This document shows positions 1,840 through 39,757 of a stretch of 64,000 nt of DNA, piece by piece. A model generated the notes under the pieces. That model searched no databases, was not told the origin of the DNA, and saw nothing but the letters and a program-made list of their open reading frames with translations. Source of the stretch: an uncultured Chloroflexia bacterium (GTDB lineage Bacteria; Chloroflexota; Chloroflexia; QHBQ01; JADMIH01); NCBI GenBank assembly GCA_963797095.1, contig CAWCNY010000001.1, forward strand, positions 448,001-512,000, read 5' to 3'. The number at the start of each line of letters is the position of its first letter. The first letter of the stretch is position 1. The position numbers were made by a program, and so were the translations under genes.

Positions 1840-3121
1840 GGCCCCCCTTTTTGGTGCCAGTGCCATCTTGGCCATCTTGGCCATCTTGGCCATCTTGATC
1901 AGTGGCATTGGGGGCACTCACTGCAGAAGCAGCAGGCGCTGCAGAAGCATTGGTACGGATGACTTCGAGGTAGGCATGTGCAAACATAGCCAGCGTGATA
2001 TGACGGTACCATGCATTCCAACGCCGCACTTCATATTGATCCAGCCCCACATTCCCTTTGGCTGCCTCAAAGCTTTCCTCAATCGCCCACCTCACACCTG
2101 CTACCCGCACCAACTCCTCAACAGGTGTAGCGTCTGGACCAAAAGCAAGATAGTAAGCAAGTTCCGTAGGGTCGCTCAAACTGCGCCGAGCCAGTAGCCA
2201 ACGGGCCATGTGAGCCGTACCAGCTCTGTGCTGGTGAGGGAGTTGAATACAAGCCCACTCATAGAGCCGCTCTCCTTGGCTCCCTTCCCCTGCGGAGAGT
2301 GTGGCCCATGCCTGCGCCTCCAGTTCGCCGATCAAGGTATCTGCTCGTTGCTGGTGACCGGCGCGCCAGATAGCGTGATCACAGGAGACCGCCAACACGT
2401 AGGAGTGTTGATTAGTTTCTAACCAGTGCCGTAATTCGCTGTCGTCCCCGTAAACTGCATCTCCCGTCACCCACCCAGCCGGAGTTGGAACCTGACCCCC
2501 AAACGCCCGCGCTAGCATCTGCTGAGCAAGCTGTGGTTTGGTAGCAAACACTACCTCGTCCGGTACGCCTGCCTCCTTGCGGCGCTGCTCATCAAGTGCC
2601 CACTCTTTTGGCAGATACAGTTCTCGGTCCAAGAAGGTATGTCCGTTAGGGCTTGCATAGGCGAGAAAGACGCCAATTTGGCAGTTCTCGATGCGCCCTG
2701 CTGTTCCACTGTACTGCCTCTGCACGCCGACCGACTTGGTACCCTTCTTGATGAAGCCGGTCTCATCCACGATTAGCACTCCCCGTCCCCGAGGATCGCC
2801 AAGATGCTCGACCACGTAGGAGCGCAGGTCGTCGCGGACAGCATCAGCATCCCAGTGAGCGGCATTGAGCAGGCGCTGTACTCCTTGTGGCCCAGCTTCG
2901 CCCAGGTGCTCAGCCAATTGCCAGCCATTCTTGCGCTCGACACGATCCAGGAGTGCTGCCAGATACCGCAGGGCTCGATCCCGGACTTCAGATCGGCGGA
3001 ACCGGCTACTGATACGAACATGCAAGGCATCCAATCCCCCTCGCCAGCCCTCAATGTCCTCTCGCCATATACGTTCTTGCTCTGTCTGCTGCGTTTGCAC
3101 TCTTCTCTCACTCGTCATCAT
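1835..3121 (-). CDS. IS701-family transposase (3' end truncated by the IS481-like element)
   Basis: [54 protein letters not shown]; the stop codon lies inside the neighbouring IS IR. Confidence 0.9.
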
Positions 3122-3190
3122 CTGGTATCCTCCCTCCATTTCCATTCTAATCAGGATACCATACATTTGGATATAAGTGTCGCTGTAGTA
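1840..3190 (-). mobile_element. IS701-family element, left end intact, right end lost
   Basis: Left end on the minus strand reads ctaa|TACTACAGCGACACTT (ending at 3190), typical of IS701; no matching right IR. Confidence 0.7.
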
Positions 3191-4440: not shown

Positions 4441-5022
4441 ATGGAATCAATTCTCATATTCAGCAATGTAGCTCTTTGGGTGTTCGTCCTCTTCAACTTC
4501 ATCTTGACGCTTGCCTTAATACAACGATTGGGCTCTGGGCCTGTTTCCGCCGCCACACAGCAAGGTTTGCCAGCAGGAGAGCAGGCACCCCCATTTACAG
4601 CCGAAACACTGGCTGGTGAACAAATCACCCTTTCATCCTTTGCGGGTAGGAATGTGGCATTCATCCTTTTCGGGCTTGACTGCGCACCATGCCTGGAGGC
4701 TCTACCTGACTACGAGGCGCTTTCTCCAAAGGCTAAGCGCAAAGGCACAGAGATTGTGTTAGTAAGTCTGAACACTTTGGAGAACACCCGAGCATTTGCG
4801 GATGAACACAAGGTTCAGTGCCCAGTGATTATCGGGAACAAATCTTTTATGACAGACTACAAGGCGCGTGGCACGCCATTTTACACTCTCGTAGATGGTC
4901 AGGGCAAAGTTATCTCATCAGGGCCACCAAGCCGTAATGTGAAAGGCTGGCGCGAGTTAGCAAGTTCCTGGGAGGCGGTGGAAGATATTGTGCTTGAACC
5001 CGCTGGCGCCGCCGGCAATTGA
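4441..5022 (+). CDS. Membrane-anchored TlpA/MauD-like thiol-disulfide oxidoreductase
   Basis: N-terminal TM helix, GLPAGEQAPPF, CAPC active site, cis-Pro motif GTPFYTLVDGQG. Confidence 0.85.
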   Translation: MESILIFSNVALWVFVLFNFILTLALIQRLGSGPVSAATQQGLPAGEQAPPFTAETLAGEQITLSSFAGRNVAFILFGLDCAPCLEALPDYEALSPKAKRKGTEIVLVSLNTLENTRAFADEHKVQCPVIIGNKSFMTDYKARGTPFYTLVDGQGKVISSGPPSRNVKGWRELASSWEAVEDIVLEPAGAAGN

Positions 5023-35298: not shown

Positions 35299-35900
35299 GC
35301 ACACTATATAGGAGGAGCCGCAAGGTTTTCGAGGAGCCGGACAACAGCGAGCAAATCACGAACGTGGTGTGTGGCCTTGGCATCGTCACGCGCCACAAAG
35401 GCAACAACAGAAAAGCCCGCGATTTGTTCGGCCTGGATCTGGCAACAGCGCCACTAGAGTGCTGCCATCTCCAATTCTCTGCACCTCATCGACTTCCCAA
35501 TTCACTCACTCGTTAGACTTTGACGCAGCCCGGAGCGGGCGTTCCTTGGTACTTGACGAGAGAGCAAACTCATGATAGTGTTTGCTATCCGGCGCTGCTG
35601 GAGGCGGGCTGCGTTTGCTGCCACACCTTTGAGACAGCCGTTATTCGTATTGCATGGTCGGATGGCGCAACGGTGAGCAGTTCTATGACGAGCTATTCAG
35701 CCCCTGGTCACCGCTGTATCTTCGAGGCCGCCCCAGCGTGGGGACTGTAGCATATTTGACTCCGGGAATATCAATCATTTGGCTGTAAGGGTTATGCCGC
35801 GCATCTATAATGACCTTGTAGGAAAGAGGTTCAGCATAACGTAGCGACCTCTAAGTGTTGTCAGGTCAGCAAAGAAGCATAAGACGAAAGGAGAAATGAA

Positions 35901-36260
35901 ATGGAGAAGAACGCCACCGATCAGAAAGTGCTGTTGCTTACAGACGAATCGGGGAGCCACTATGCGATCCCATTCGAGGCTCTCGAGCGATACCGAGTAA
36001 GTGATGAGCAAAGGTCCGAGATAGAAGGTCTGCTCGGCCCTGACGTCTCTGGCTACGGAATGTTTGAGCAGTCTGTGGCCGAGCACAGGGCTGCCCAGTA
36101 CCAGGCAGACAGGCAGGACGAGGCCGCCCGCGAGAGGCTTCTGAAATCGGCTGGAGAGAGTGCAGATGTTGAGGCAGGGTCGTTGCCGGGGCGTGGGTTC
36201 TTCACCGGGGTGGTGGCCACCTTGCGCTCTATGTCGCGTGTTGTACCCGAACAGGCGTAG
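35901..36260 (+). CDS. Small hypothetical protein (possible leader/core peptide precursor)
   Basis: RBS AAAGGAGA; acidic N-terminal region ending GPDVSGY, followed by a variable tail. Confidence 0.7.
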   Translation: MEKNATDQKVLLLTDESGSHYAIPFEALERYRVSDEQRSEIEGLLGPDVSGYGMFEQSVAEHRAAQYQADRQDEAARERLLKSAGESADVEAGSLPGRGFFTGVVATLRSMSRVVPEQA

Positions 36261-36542
36261 CTTATCACAAGGTTCTCTTTCTGGTTAGTCCCCGGTTGTT
36301 TCCTAGCTCTCTCGTAAAATAGGCGGCGGGTGTAGTCCATCCGCATCACTGTAGCGACGTAGAGGATAGGACGAAACGCTGCGAGCACTCCCCCCAGGCG
36401 ATTAGTGCTTCCCTGTCCCCCACGATGACCTTCTCCGCGCTGCCTTCGAAGCCAATGGCGATATGTCCTTAAGACGGTGGGCGATGCTTTCTGTACTGCT
36501 TTTCCCACAGCCCCTCAACTCGACTGATCTGAAAATCGTGGC

Positions 36543-38023
36543 TCAAGCTGCCTCAACCACGGGGGCCAGTGTCACCTGGAAGCCGAGTTTTTCAATCTGC
36601 TTCGCCAACCTTCTTGCGGTGGCCTCTGGTCTGCGCTTCTCGAAGTAATCAGCTCCCAACTCTCGATAGGGCTCCTTACGAAGGATAACATGGTAAGCTA
36701 TCACCAAAATCGAATGAGCTACCGCCACCAAAGCCCGCTTGTCCCCACGTCTGGTGACCAACCGCCGGTACTGGGCCGCCAGGTACGTCCCTCTGGTGCG
36801 TACCGCCGCCCGTGCTGCTTGCACAAGTCCCACCCGAAGCCACGCGTCTCCTTTGCGCGTCTTGCCCGACCGCCTCTTACCCGCACTCTCGTTGTTCCCA
36901 GGTGCCACTCCCGCCCAGGCTGCCAGGTGTCCGGCCGTCGGGAAACGGGTCATGTCCGTCCCGATCTCGGCCACCAACATCTCAGCCACCAACATCTCAG
37001 CCACCAACATCTCAGCCACCAACATCTCAGCCACCAACATCTCAGCCACCAACATCTCAGCCACCAACATCTCAGCCACCAACATCTCAGCCACCAACAT
37101 CTCAGCCACCAACATCTCAGCCACCAACATCTCAGCCACCAACATCTCAGCCACCAACATCTCAGCCACCAACATCTCAGCCACCAACATCTCAGCCAAC
37201 TCCCGCCCTACACCCGGGATTGTATCAAGCAAGCTGATCACCTCTTCGTTCCCATCAGCCTGACACGCTGCGCGGATCTCGTCATCAAAGTGGTCAATCG
37301 TTTCGTCCAGAGAGTCGATCTGGCACAACAACTCGGTCAACAGGAAGCGGTGATGAGGTCGCACTCTGCTTCTCAAGGCCCCTTCCAATTCGGAGCGTTT
37401 GCTGCGCAGCCTCCCCACCGCCAAACTGGCAAGCACTTTGGCATCGGTTTCGCCACTGATGATGGCCGTAAGGATCGCCCGCCCCGACACACCCATCACA
37501 TTGGTAGCTACATCGCCCAGCTTGAGGTTAGCTCCCTCACGTCCTTCGTCCTCAGCACTTTCTGCACACGGTTCACCAACGTAGCTCGCTGGCGCACGAA
37601 GTTGGTGCGCTCACGGGTCAAGTCTCGCAAGTCACGCTGAGATTGTGGTGGGATGAAGGAGGGCTGCACTAAACCATGACGCAGCAAATCAGCCAACCAC
37701 TCGGCGTCTTTGACATCTATCTTGCGGCCAGGCAGCTTCTTTACGTGCTGGGCATTGAGTACCCAGACAGTGAAATTGCCTTCCAACAGGTTGAAGATGG
37801 GTTTCCAATAGACCCCGGTGCTTTCGAGGGCTACATGTGTCACTCCCCCCTCGCTCAACCAGTCACTGAGATGCAGCAATTCGGGGATGGTGGTGCCAAA
37901 GGAGCGGGTCTGGGTCTCGCTGTGAGGCGACACAGTGGACCCTGCAAGCATTCGACACGCTACCACACTTTGTTTATGCACGTCCAATCCAGCGCAGCGC
38001 TCAAACATTACGTTCATCGCCAA
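36543..38023 (-). pseudogene. IS110 DEDD recombinase, frameshifted and repeat-expanded
   Basis: CAGLDVHK, ALESTGVYW, KIDVKDAEW, IPGVG, PGNNESAGK; a 14-bp insertion near 37540 shifts the frame; 15 copies of AEMLV inserted. Confidence 0.92.
36970..37194. repeat. 15-bp perfect tandem repeat x15
   Basis: (GCCACCAACATCTCA)15, in-frame in the IS110 transposase. Confidence 0.97.
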
Positions 38024-38029
38024 TACCTC

Positions 38030-38325
38030 CTGAGTTCATTGAGCTCAACAAGGGCGAGTTGTCGAGGCTGGATATCGGCGGGGAGGAGGATACCCGATGG
38101 ATCAGAAACTGATCTACGCGCTTCCAGCTTCCATTGCACAGAGTGGGCCGTGGAAAACGGAGCAGCAAATGGTGGTGCTTGCGGGTATCCGGGTCAGTCT
38201 TTGTATCAGGCTCATAGCACCAAGTCGAGGCGACCGCATGGTTCGCCGAATCCATCCATTGCTAGCATACATCTATACACCCATTTTCATCCGGGGTGGT
38301 GACCGTGACCCGGGGGTCATGGCGT
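38030..38325 (-). ncRNA. Putative IS110 bridge RNA
   Basis: Minus strand GGTCGC-CTCGACT-tggtgctatgagcctga-TACAAAG-ACTGACC; the two guides match both halves of the reconstructed target CTCGA-CT-TTGTA. Transcript ends are approximate. Confidence 0.7.
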
Positions 38326-38851
38326 CTTTGTACACTTTCAGTATTGCGGCCAAACACGAACTTCGATATCTTCATTCGCACGCGCGAGAGTTTTCAACAT
38401 CCCCCCTTCGCGTGATGCGTGAAAAAGCCTCGAACGAGTACTCGAGTACTGGTGCCCGCACGAACCATGCCCCTCAGTAAGCTGCAAAAGTGTACAAAGT
38501 CGAGCTCAGGCTCTGCAAGCTGCCTTCAATGCCCGGTACTCGCCCCATTCAGAGCAGTGGCCTTCGGAAACCGGGCATATGAAGGTGCGCATGGCGCTAT
38601 TTGTACGGGCAGCCACGAAGCGAAGAGGGGATTACTTCAGCCAACCTGTCAATCGCTTGGCTGGCCTCCTTTCTGCCGGGCGCGGCGGGCAGGGGCTCTT
38701 GTTCTTGTCCGATCCCGCATATCAATAGCCTCCCGTTGCAGCCTACTCCATGGACAGGCAGAGAAAAGGAGATGGCTGCTATTGAGATTCTGCTGTTTGG
38801 GGCATGGGGCAGCCGAGGCGATGTAATTGCCGGCAATGGAGGGTCGTCCAT

Positions 38852-39757
38852 ATGGATAATGAACCTAGAATGGCGTCCTATGACGAGGCTGAGCACGCGC
38901 AGAGGACGATTGAGCAGCAGGCCCGGGAGATAGAGCACCTGCGACGCCGCCTTGCCGACGAGCAGGTGGCGACCCAACTTCGACAAGCTCTGGCACTAGT
39001 CTCGATGACCGGCACAATAGCCTCGCCAGTCAGTCACAATCATCTTCTCGAGATGATCGTCGAGACAGCTGCTCAGGTCATCGAGGCAAGTGCCGCCTCC
39101 CTCTTCCTCACAGATCACGAGAGCCAGCAACTCGTGTTCGAAGTGGCGCTGGGTGAGAAGGGCCAAGAGGTAAAGAAGTTCACCGTTCCGATGGGCCATG
39201 GTATCGCTGGCCTGGTGGCGGTGAGCGGCCAACCCATGGCTATCTCCAACGCCCAACAAGACCCTCGTCAAGCGGCAGACATAGCTAAGAGTGTTGGCTA
39301 TATGCCCGAGAGCATCCTCTGCGTGCCCCTCTTCTACAACGAGGAGATAATCGGCGTGCTCGAGTTGCTCGACAAAAAAGGTGCGCCGTCCTTTGATGCT
39401 GCCGATATGCACCTGCTAGGTGTCTTTGCGAGACAGGCCGCCGTCGCTATCGAGCAATCGCTTACTCACCACAACTTGGCTGCCCTCGTAGCCGAGGTGC
39501 TGGCCTCGCTCGGCAACGTGCCCGAGCAGCAAAAGAAGTCATTGCAGGCGAGCATCAGGACCTTCGTGGGCAACATGGAAGCCGATCTGACTTACCGCCA
39601 GGCGCTGGAGCTTGCCCGGCTCGTGCAGGAGATAGCCACACAAGGCAATGGTGAGTTGAAGGCTTGCCGCGCCATCCTTGAAAGCTTTGCGGAATACCTG
39701 CGCTCGCGCCCAGCTATTCTCAGCGAGAGCGACGAAGCAGGAGGGGTGTGGGGATGA
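38852..39757 (+). CDS. GAF-domain protein without output domain
   Basis: N-terminal coiled coil, GHGIAGLVA, SILCVPL, IIGVLELLDK, FDAADMHLL; RBS GGAGGG. Confidence 0.88.
   Translation: MDNEPRMASYDEAEHAQRTIEQQAREIEHLRRRLADEQVATQLRQALALVSMTGTIASPVSHNHLLEMIVETAAQVIEASAASLFLTDHESQQLVFEVALGEKGQEVKKFTVPMGHGIAGLVAVSGQPMAISNAQQDPRQAADIAKSVGYMPESILCVPLFYNEEIIGVLELLDKKGAPSFDAADMHLLGVFARQAAVAIEQSLTHHNLAALVAEVLASLGNVPEQQKKSLQASIRTFVGNMEADLTYRQALELARLVQEIATQGNGELKACRAILESFAEYLRSRPAILSESDEAGGVWG

What the first reader, a model, noticed from the sequence alone, without database searches (positions are those of the whole stretch)
36519..38504. IS110 bridge RNA whose guides match the reconstructed target, the inverted repeat of a MITE
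Seen: removing 36526-38327 restores an 18-bp IR, CTCGACTTTGTACACTTT, that pairs perfectly with 38487-38504. The target is therefore CTCGA-CT-TTGTA with a CT core. In the non-coding end (minus strand, 38236 to 38191) a GGTCG/TGACC stem encloses CTCGACT (left target guide) and TACAAAG (reverse complement of the right half). AGATCAG (38115-38109) matches the donor junction side CTGATCT; I did not find its partner donor guide. Known: IS621 bridge RNAs use this left-then-right guide layout and a CT core, and IS4321/IS5075 target transposon IRs. This is a natural guide-target pair programmed against another mobile element.
Basis: partly seen in the sequence, partly recalled or inferred. Interest (0 to 1): 0.7.

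Follow-up and report, generated by a model that had tools for sequence, protein, structure and literature searches.

The report
RNA-guided IS110-family element targeting IS701 ends
A decayed RNA-guided jumping gene of the IS110 family sits in the terminal repeat of another jumping gene, and its non-coding region carries short guides that spell out that site; the mechanism is known, but this target is new.

Summary
Window 36526-38327 (minus strand) is an 1802-bp IS110-family element. Removing it restores a perfect 18-bp inverted repeat.

Its 304-nt non-coding end upstream of the transposase holds two words that match the two halves of the restored site, inside a stem that covaries in 27 relatives. 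A third word matches the element's own right end.

A second copy in the same genome sits in the same 14-bp word. That word is the tip of the terminal inverted repeats of a 1476-bp IS701-family element. It has 10 free copies in the genome, so 2 of 12 sites are occupied.

- The real target is the IS701 repeat tip. The "MITE" is a single-copy 184-bp derivative.
- Read in the sense of the RNA and transposase, the core is AG and the guide complementary to the top strand comes first. That is the IS1111/seekRNA order, not the IS621 order.
- Sister elements carry the same RNA scaffold downstream of the transposase.

Both copies share a 14-nt frameshifting insertion and an expanded 15-bp repeat, so the element is probably no longer autonomous.

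Relatives in other genomes (L058; L109 by its left flank only) sit at the same position of variant IS701-type repeats, with matching guide changes.

Verdict: a new member of a known kind.

The parts
36519..36525 (+). Outer 7 bp of the left terminal repeat of the 184-bp IS701-derived miniature element: left half-site plus the CT core.
36526..38327 (-). IS110-family element, 1802 bp including one copy of the core.
   Evidence: The second copy is 100% alike over the aligned parts.
36530..36536 (-). Subterminal inverted-repeat heptamer at the right end. It lies 4 nt plus the core from the tip.
   Evidence: It is conserved just after the stop codon in relatives with a long left end.
36543..37499 (-). 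C-terminal reading frame of the transposase (Transposase_20 domain).
36964..37198. In-frame 15-bp tandem repeat with 15.7 units inside the transposase gene. Copy 2 has about 4 units (my count by eye). The homologue L019 has one.
37539..37552 (-). 14-nt insertion, relative to the homologue L019, that splits the reading frame. It is present in both genomic copies.
37508..38023 (-). N-terminal reading frame of the transposase (DEDD/RuvC-like domain).
38088..38190 (-). Donor-binding module. Outer stem: 38190-38182 with 38096-38088. Inner stem: 38167-38159 with 38125-38117.
   Evidence: centroid fold; outer stem of 8 or more pairs in 22 of 27 relatives; inner stem, 5 of 8 pairs compensatory.
38108..38115 (-). 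Donor guide. It has the same sense as the last 5 bases of the right end plus the core, plus one base equal to the first base of the right flank.
   Evidence: own 20 of 27, cross 17 of 570.
38192..38235 (-). Target-binding module: outer stem, 5' guide, bulged inner hairpin, 3' guide.
38222..38229 (-). 5' target guide, 8 nt. It is complementary to the transposase-sense top strand (one base of the left half-site, the core and the right half-site).
38197..38205 (-). 3' target guide of 7 nt (left half-site plus core, transposase sense), followed by 2 nt equal to the first two bases of the left end. The extra 2 nt look like a handshake guide.
   Evidence: own 22 of 27, cross 14 of 648.
38283..38289 (-). 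Subterminal inverted-repeat heptamer in the left end, starting 38 nt from the tip (the core counted).
38303..38322 (.). GC-rich hairpin between the left tip and the heptamer. Relatives have one at the same place with different sequences.
   Evidence: and by eye.
38328..38504 (+). Rest of the 184-bp miniature element. The right 18-bp repeat lies at 38487-38504 and holds an unoccupied copy of the 14-bp target.

Best explanation
**What it is.** Window 36526-38327 (minus strand) is a member of the IS110 family in the wide sense. It is an RNA-guided DEDD recombinase element. It belongs to a clade that has the IS1111/seekRNA guide order and short subterminal inverted repeats, yet carries its bridge RNA upstream of the transposase.

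**How it works (inferred from the family).** The element excises as a circle, which joins its right and left ends at a 2-bp core. A roughly 150-nt RNA from the non-coding left end (about 38240-38088, minus strand) folds into two modules.
[quoted passage not shown] - Recombination at the core (CT on the window's + strand) inserts the element in one orientation.

**What it hits.** The site is 7 bp inside the tip of the terminal inverted repeat of IS701-family elements. This splits the repeat and probably disables that end.

**Shown here.**
- The element, its ends and its core.
- Two independent insertions in the same 14-bp word.
- The identity of that word as the IS701 repeat tip.
- The covarying RNA fold and its strand.
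- Family-wide agreement between two of the guides and each element's own junctions.

**Inferred only.** Transcription, RNA-protein complex formation and the chemistry.

**Present state.** Both copies share a frameshifting 14-nt insertion and an expanded in-frame 15-bp repeat. The element is therefore most likely a non-autonomous relic, or dependent on a helper.
For: **Family.** Pfam PF01548 (E 2e-28) and PF02371 (E 2e-21) hit the two reading frames. NCBIfam NF033542, "IS110 family RNA-guided transposase", hits both halves.

**Target.**
- Copy 2 shares only the 14-bp word with copy 1 in its flanks.
- That word has 10 uninterrupted copies. Nine are at ends of IS701 copies and one is in the right repeat of the miniature element.
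- The host element scores 334 against a cut-off of 170 for NF049999, IS701 family.
- A contig of an independent soil run, 95-99% alike, leaves the left end through the same half-site. By eye it then runs into an IS701-type left-repeat variant. Its guides are unchanged.

**Guides.**
- An 8-nt word and a 7+2-nt word match the site. Both 7-mers occur together in 3 of 20000 shuffles.
- Motif-anchored windows: 14 of 19 relatives have a sense match of 8 nt or more to their own left junction, against 41 of 340 mismatched pairs. 15 of 19 match their own right end, against 78 of 340.
- Alignment-defined guide columns: own 22 of 27 against cross 14 of 648, and own 20 of 27 against cross 17 of 570.

**Fold.**
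- 18 pairs are 93.9% paired, against 83.1% in shuffles (0 of 500 shuffles reach it). Slid controls give 18-57%.
- 10 pairs have compensatory changes.
- G-U pairs are conserved in 21, 25 and 26 of 27 rows, which fixes the strand.
- The outer stem of the second module is 8 or more pairs long in 22 of 27 rows.

**Clade.** Five relatives with a short left end carry the same scaffold downstream of the transposase.

**Same lifestyle elsewhere.**
- L058 lies in the right repeat of an IS701-family element whose transposase is 38-49% identical to ours. Its guides are changed to fit (by eye).
- L109 has the same left half-site.
Against: - No RNA evidence. The one metatranscriptome contig covers only 37759-37960, inside the transposase gene.
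- No sigma-70-like promoter was found in the region, nor in the circle junction plus left end at 8 of 12 matches or better.
- The guide for the left-end side of the donor was not found. Neither word matching nor the column-by-position matrix on 16 elements gave a diagonal.
- Covariation of the 5' target guide across relatives is weak in that matrix: isolated cells at z about 3 with n = 13.
- Several downstream-RNA relatives show no match of that guide to their right flank (by eye).
- The whole left end does not fold better than shuffles (z -0.16).
- The transposase frame is broken in both copies, so present activity is doubtful. It is also unexplained how a broken element reached two sites.
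- Relatives are related to each other, so own-versus-cross counts overstate independence.
Confidence: 0.85

Rival explanations
1. This is an IS621-type (IS110-group) bridge RNA in which the left target guide comes first, the right target guide second, and the core is CT in the element's own orientation.
For: Read on the window's + strand, the first word equals left half-site plus CT and the second is the complement of CT plus right half-site. The 2 nt after the second word behave like IS621's handshake guide. The bridge RNA lies upstream of the transposase, as in the IS110 group.
Against: The transposase and the RNA are on the minus strand. The strand is fixed by three conserved G-U pairs. In that sense the core is AG and the first guide pairs with the top strand. 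This is the reverse of IS621 and ISEc21 and the same as IS1111-type seekRNAs. Sister elements with the same scaffold have it downstream of the transposase, together with subterminal repeats. IS621 matches only the C-terminal domain, at E 2e-14.
Confidence: 0.08
2. The element is still mobile. Either the broken frame is bypassed by frameshifting or slippage, or the two copies are moved by a helper recombinase from an intact paralogue or a lost master copy that uses this element's own RNA and ends.
For: Two copies at different sites share the same 14-nt insertion and differ by one base and in repeat number. This suggests movement after the lesion arose. Six intact paralogues, 49-55% identical to the homologue L019 and carrying the same RNA scaffold, are in the genome.
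Against: No intact near-identical copy was found in this genome, in 25 genomes of the genus or in the species-representative collection, where the best hit is 73%. The repeat expansion lies in the C-terminal (Transposase_20-bearing) frame of the transposase, where the homologue L019 has a single unit. Only 2 of 12 sites are occupied. Gene conversion between copies could also spread the lesion.
Confidence: 0.25
3. The matches are chance or are DNA-level features, for example protein-binding sites or captured target fragments. The site would then be chosen by the protein without an RNA.
For: There is no transcript evidence and no promoter match. One donor side has no recognisable guide. Subterminal repeats and a conserved hairpin suggest that protein recognises the ends.
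Against: Both target 7-mers occur together in 3 of 20000 shuffles. The words sit in the unpaired strands of stems that covary. The same alignment columns hold different words in relatives, each matching its own junction. The mechanism has been shown by experiment for both subfamilies (passages read).
Confidence: 0.04

Closest known systems
[quoted passage not shown] I saw only the title in reference lists and one passage on the IS4321 target.
   Same: Both are DEDD-transposase elements with subterminal repeats. Both insert at one position and in one orientation inside the terminal repeat of another transposable element.
   Different: The host here is an IS701-family insertion sequence and its miniature derivative, not a Tn3-family transposon. 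The non-coding RNA region is upstream of the transposase, not downstream. The distance from tip to subterminal repeat is about 38 nt on the left and 6 nt on the right with the core counted, against 7 and 3 nt as quoted.
IS1111-type seekRNA elements ISEc11, ISKpn4 and ISPa11 (Siddiquee et al. 2024, PMC11187229; passages read).
   Same: The guide complementary to the top strand precedes the guide complementary to the bottom strand. Subterminal inverted repeats are present. Sister elements of ours have the RNA downstream of the transposase.
   Different: In ours the RNA region is upstream. The paper notes such exceptions, for example ISMtsp17. The subterminal repeat is only 7 bp.
IS621 bridge RNA (Durrant et al. 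2024, PMC11208160; Hiraizumi et al. 2024, PMC11208158; passages read).
   Same: The RNA is upstream of the recombinase. It has two modules, each with an outer stem, a guide, a bulged inner hairpin and a second guide. Both target guides cover the core. Two nt after the 3' target guide match the donor, like a handshake guide.
   Different: The order of top-strand and bottom-strand guides is reversed relative to the gene. Equivalently, the core reads AG rather than CT in the gene's sense. The second donor guide was not found. The protein is only distantly related (E 2e-14, C-terminal domain only). There is no Rfam match.

Membership tests
IS110 family in the wide sense (DEDD transposase elements) | A DEDD/RuvC-like N-terminal domain plus a Transposase_20 C-terminal domain. 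| tested here: met
   PF01548 scores 99.5 bits and PF02371 scores 76.5 bits. NF033542 scores 125.6 and 122.4 bits on the two halves, each below the whole-protein cut-off of 140 because the gene is split.
IS110 family in the wide sense | Site-specific, orientation-specific insertion with a short core repeated at both junctions. | tested here: met
   Two copies sit in the same 14-bp word in the same orientation, with a 2-bp core at both junctions.
Bridge RNA / seekRNA | Two guides in one internal loop that pair with opposite strands of the two half-sites and overlap at the core. | tested here: met
   Words of 8 nt and 7 nt in the unpaired strands of a covarying stem-hairpin-stem. The 3' guide fits each relative's own junction in 22 of 27, against 14 of 648 cross pairs.
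Bridge RNA / seekRNA | A second loop with two guides for the donor (the junction of the element's ends). | tested here: inconclusive
   The right-end guide was found: own 20 of 27, cross 17 of 570. The left-end guide was not found.
Bridge RNA / seekRNA | The RNA is made and binds the recombinase. | not testable with these tools
   Only one metatranscriptome contig was found, and it lies inside the transposase gene.
IS110 group (IS621-like) | The bottom-strand guide comes first in each loop, and the core reads CT in the gene's orientation. | tested here: not met
   The top-strand complement comes first and the core reads AG in the transposase sense (set).
IS110 group (IS621-like) | A long left end holds the RNA upstream of the recombinase. 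| tested here: met
   304 nt lie upstream and 17 nt downstream of the coding region.
IS1111 group | Subterminal inverted repeats (7-17 bp). | tested here: met
   A 7-bp repeat lies at 38283-38289 and 36530-36536. It is conserved in most relatives.
IS1111 group | In the RNA, the top-strand complement lies 5' of the bottom-strand complement. | tested here: met
IS1111 group | The non-coding RNA region lies downstream of the transposase, with terminal extensions of 7 and 3 bp. | tested here: not met
   The region is upstream here. The extensions are about 38 nt and 6 nt with the core counted. Sister elements L047, L056, L057, L060 and L094 do have the RNA downstream.
MITE | Small, non-coding, terminal inverted repeats, and a target-site duplication. 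| tested here: met
   184 bp with 18 of 18 bp in the repeats. The 5-bp flanks agree at 4 of 5 positions.
MITE | Present in many copies. | tested here: not met
   One copy in this genome and none in 39 other genomes of the order.
IS701 family (the host element) | An IS701-type DDE transposase, terminal repeats and a short duplication. | tested here: met
   NF049999 scores 334 bits against a cut-off of 170, and PF13546 matches. The 14-bp tips are shared by both ends. The same 5-bp word flanks all copies (by eye).

The most novel reading that the evidence does not exclude
This would be one clade of IS1111-like elements, found in Chloroflexota and many other phyla, that keeps a single bridge-RNA scaffold. 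The scaffold has moved between the 3' and the 5' side of the transposase without changing guide order.

Several of its lineages have become specialised parasites of IS701-family elements. Their guides are re-written to follow variant repeat tips (ours, L058, L109, perhaps L105). The left-end side of the donor would be recognised not by RNA pairing but by protein binding to a conserved hairpin and subterminal repeat.
Probability: 0.45. Interest if true: 0.6.

Novelty: new member of a known kind. Interest (0 to 1): 0.45.

Why it matters
This is a clean natural case in which guides, target, empty sites and a second insertion can all be read from one genome.

It shows an RNA-guided insertion sequence using the conserved repeat tip of another insertion sequence as a multi-copy, probably harmless, landing pad. 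This extends the IS4321/IS5075-on-Tn21 precedent to an IS-on-IS case in environmental bacteria.

The clade offers paired examples of upstream and downstream RNA placement with one scaffold. It also offers natural guide re-programming against variant targets. Both are useful for working out what fixes orientation and donor recognition in the IS1111-type systems, which are less studied than IS621.

It does not change the known mechanism.

Tried and rejected
**Steps that led nowhere**
- **Rfam.** Run at E up to 1 on 35500-39500. It gave no bridge-RNA family, only a chance snoRNA hit.
- **Single-sequence fold.** The 304-nt end folds no better than shuffles (z -0.16). Only the comparative fold was informative.
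- **Promoter scans.** None in 36400-38600. None at 8 of 12 matches or better in the circle junction plus left end. This is no evidence against a promoter in this phylum.
- **Metagenome scan.** An exact 19-mer of the left tip gave 2 loci with no other likeness to the element.
- **Order-level DNA search with the left end.** 0 of 25 genomes of the genus. Only diverged relatives in 3 of 14 other genomes of the order, many of which are incomplete.
- **Miniature element.** No other copy found.
- **Left-end donor guide.** Not found by word matches or by the column-by-position matrix. In L019 a discontinuous 10-nt complement can be drawn by eye at the 5' side of the second module, but ours does not fit it.
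- **The matrix's strong diagonals.** Those for the 3' target guide and the donor guide are circular, because junctions were located with those guides. The independent tests are.
- **RNA run X9.** It covers only 37759-37960. No cover of the non-coding end was seen, which shows nothing either way.
- **Plasmid tblastn for a named nearest relative.** It gave only generic "IS110 family" names.
- **Solved structures.** Only the distant IS621 and ISCro4.
- **L105 and L109 flanks.** Searched with this genome's IS701 transposase: no hit within the loci. Their host elements are therefore inferred from the repeat tip alone.
- **L105's right flank.** It is another IS110-family element, so its right half-site could not be read.
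- **Literature.** None of the 15 papers listed, out of 35 that hold two or more of IS701, bridge RNA, seekRNA and IS1111, holds IS701. This is a limited search. Supplementary tables of the 2024 papers, which I could not open, may list this clade or its targets.
Full report
**What is there**

The region holds two overlapping-frame reading frames on the minus strand, 38023-37508 and 37499-36543. They carry the DEDD_Tnp_IS110 and Transposase_20 domains. Both hit NCBIfam's "IS110 family RNA-guided transposase".

There are 304 nt of non-coding DNA upstream of the gene and 17 nt downstream. The element is 36526-38327. CT stands at both junctions.

Taking the element out joins 36519-36525 to 38328 onward. 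This restores an 18-bp word that is the perfect reverse complement of 38487-38504.

**The real target**

A second copy lies at G000:C5:324928-326564. It scored 100% over the aligned parts, with one base difference by eye and fewer 15-bp repeat units. Its flanks agree with the window's over exactly 14 bp, 7 on each side of the junction with the core counted once, and not beyond.

That 14-mer occurs 10 more times uninterrupted in the genome:
- at both ends of four near-identical 1476-bp elements;
- at the free end of a diverged, internally deleted copy on C5, the one that hosts copy 2;
- in the right repeat of the window's 184-bp element.

The 1476-bp element encodes an IS701-family transposase: NF049999 scores 334 bits against a cut-off of 170, and Pfam DDE_5 matches. 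By eye, every copy is flanked by the same 5-bp word.

So the target is the tip of the IS701 terminal repeat, and 2 of 12 sites are occupied.

The 184-bp element shares only those 14 bp with the IS. It has near-identical 5-bp flanks (4 of 5). It is a singleton: one copy here and none in 39 other genomes of the order. It is MITE-like in structure but not a repeated family.

In three related genomes the 14-mer, allowing one mismatch, is abundant: 18, 6 and 3 hits against 1, 1 and 0 for the reversed control. There it forms the tip of several different elements.

**The guides**

On the minus strand, a 5-bp stem (38235-38231 with 38196-38192) encloses three features:
- an 8-nt word at 38229-38222;
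- a small bulged hairpin;
- a 7-nt word at 38205-38199, followed by 2 nt.

The first word is complementary to the transposase-sense top strand across one base of the left half-site, the core and the right half-site. The second has the same sense as left half-site plus core. Its 2 extra nt equal the first two bases of the element's left end.

A third word, 38115-38108, equals the last bases of the right end plus core plus the first base of the right flank.

Both target 7-mers occurred together in 3 of 20000 dinucleotide shuffles.

**Comparative support**

A scan of species-representative genomes gave 80 loci, 41-73% identical in the N-terminal domain. They come from Chloroflexota and many other phyla. 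Most carry a conserved heptamer in the left end and its complement just after the stop codon.

Tests anchored on that motif:
- 14 of 19 loci have a sense match of 8 nt or more between the non-coding region and their own left junction, at a constant position. Mismatched pairs reach this in 41 of 340.
- 15 of 19 match their own right end. Mismatched pairs reach this in 78 of 340.

Tests with guide columns taken from a 27-row alignment (A2), reported:
- the 3' target guide finds its own left junction, allowing one mismatch, in 22 of 27 loci, against 14 of 648 cross pairs;
- the donor guide finds its own right end exactly in 20 of 27, against 17 of 570.

Rows are related to each other, so these counts overstate independence.

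Evidence for the 5' target guide in relatives is weaker. There are isolated matrix cells at z about 3 with n = 13. By eye, about half of the loci with a readable right flank show contiguous matches of 6 or more. The dedicated control was not run (see Tried and rejected).

**The fold and its strand**

The 18 pairs I proposed are the outer and inner stems of the first module and the inner stem of the second.
- They are 93.9% paired, against 83.1% in shuffles. 0 of 500 shuffles reach this.
- Slid controls give 18-57%.
- 10 pairs show compensatory changes.
- The outer stem of the second module differs in sequence between relatives, but is 8 or more pairs long in 22 of 27 rows.
- Three G-U pairs are conserved in 21, 25 and 26 of 27 rows. 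They would be mismatches on the other strand, so the RNA has the transposase's sense.

**Which kind it is**

[quoted passage not shown] There the element is read left end, gene, right end, and is flanked by CT.

Here, in the gene's sense, the order is the reverse and the core reads AG. Siddiquee et al. report exactly this reversal as the difference between IS1111-type and IS110-type seekRNAs.

Five relatives with a short left end (L047, L056, L057, L060, L094) carry the same scaffold downstream of the transposase, the classic IS1111 layout.

So this element belongs to an IS1111-like clade in which the RNA lies upstream. Both 2024 papers mention such exceptions and a translocation of the RNA between ends.

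**State of the element**

Against the intact 413-aa homologue L019, the gene carries a 14-nt insertion at 37539-37552 that shifts the frame. An in-frame five-residue unit is also expanded to 15.7 copies in the window and about 4 in copy 2, where the homologue has one.

Both copies share the frameshift. No intact near-identical copy was found. Six intact paralogues of the clade, each with its own guides, are in the genome.

The element is most likely non-autonomous now. How a broken element came to occupy two sites is open. A helper, gene conversion and frame bypass all remain possible.

**Same lifestyle elsewhere**

- A contig of an independent soil run, 95-99% alike with unchanged guides, leaves the left end through the same half-site. 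By eye it then enters an IS701-type left-repeat variant.
- L058 (52% identical in the N-terminal domain) lies about 25 nt after the end of an IS701-family transposase gene that is 38-49% identical to ours. Its flanks form a variant of the same repeat tip, and both target guides are changed to fit. There are 3 extra bases at its right junction (by eye).
- L109 has the same left half-site and a near-identical 3' guide. L105 has a variant half-site with matching guide changes. Their right flanks could not be read.

**Verdict**

This is a real, well-supported natural guide-target pair of a known mechanism. It has a new host target, the IS701 repeat tip. It has the IS1111 guide order with an upstream RNA. 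The element is decayed.

Noticed in passing
window 36964-37198; G000:C6:792468-794030, C5:608016-609400, C8:94373-95750: The 15-bp in-frame repeat differs in unit number between the two copies. Other IS110-family paralogues of this genome carry their own short tandem arrays in the left end near the ribosome-binding site or just outside the right end (by eye). These elements seem prone to repeat expansion.
   Followed up: partly
G000:C5:606344-609281 and G000:C8:92728-95638; L105 about 2890-3136; L096 downstream of the stop codon: IS110-family elements lie head to tail, with the right end of one abutting the left end of the next. In L020, L028 and L066 the left flank also looks like another element's right end. 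These may be tandem insertions next to relatives' ends, or dimer or circle junctions.
   Followed up: no
window 38099-38115 (minus strand): The donor guide is followed by its own complement and can form a hairpin. In the closest relatives (L019, L106, L110, and L105 and L109 with a bulge) both arms change together (by eye). This could be self-masking of the guide or a structural stem.
   Followed up: partly
window 38055-38066 (minus strand): Near the ribosome-binding site there are two further 6-7-nt matches to the left half-site and to the window copy's own left flank. They are unexplained and possibly chance.
   Followed up: no
L109 about 1665-1760: The relative's transposase gene is interrupted shortly after its start by what looks like the left end of yet another IS110-family element, with a hairpin plus the heptamer (by eye).
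   Followed up: no
L058 about 4757-4775: Three extra bases lie between the core and the right half-site at this relative's right junction.
   Followed up: no
window 38303-38322: The conserved left-end hairpin, read on the + strand and followed by the T-rich half-site, scores as a terminator-like site. It could stop read-through out of the host element.
   Followed up: no
window 37759-37960: A 203-nt contig of a soil metatranscriptome run is identical to the N-terminal part of the transposase gene. It could be RNA or carried-over DNA.
   Followed up: no
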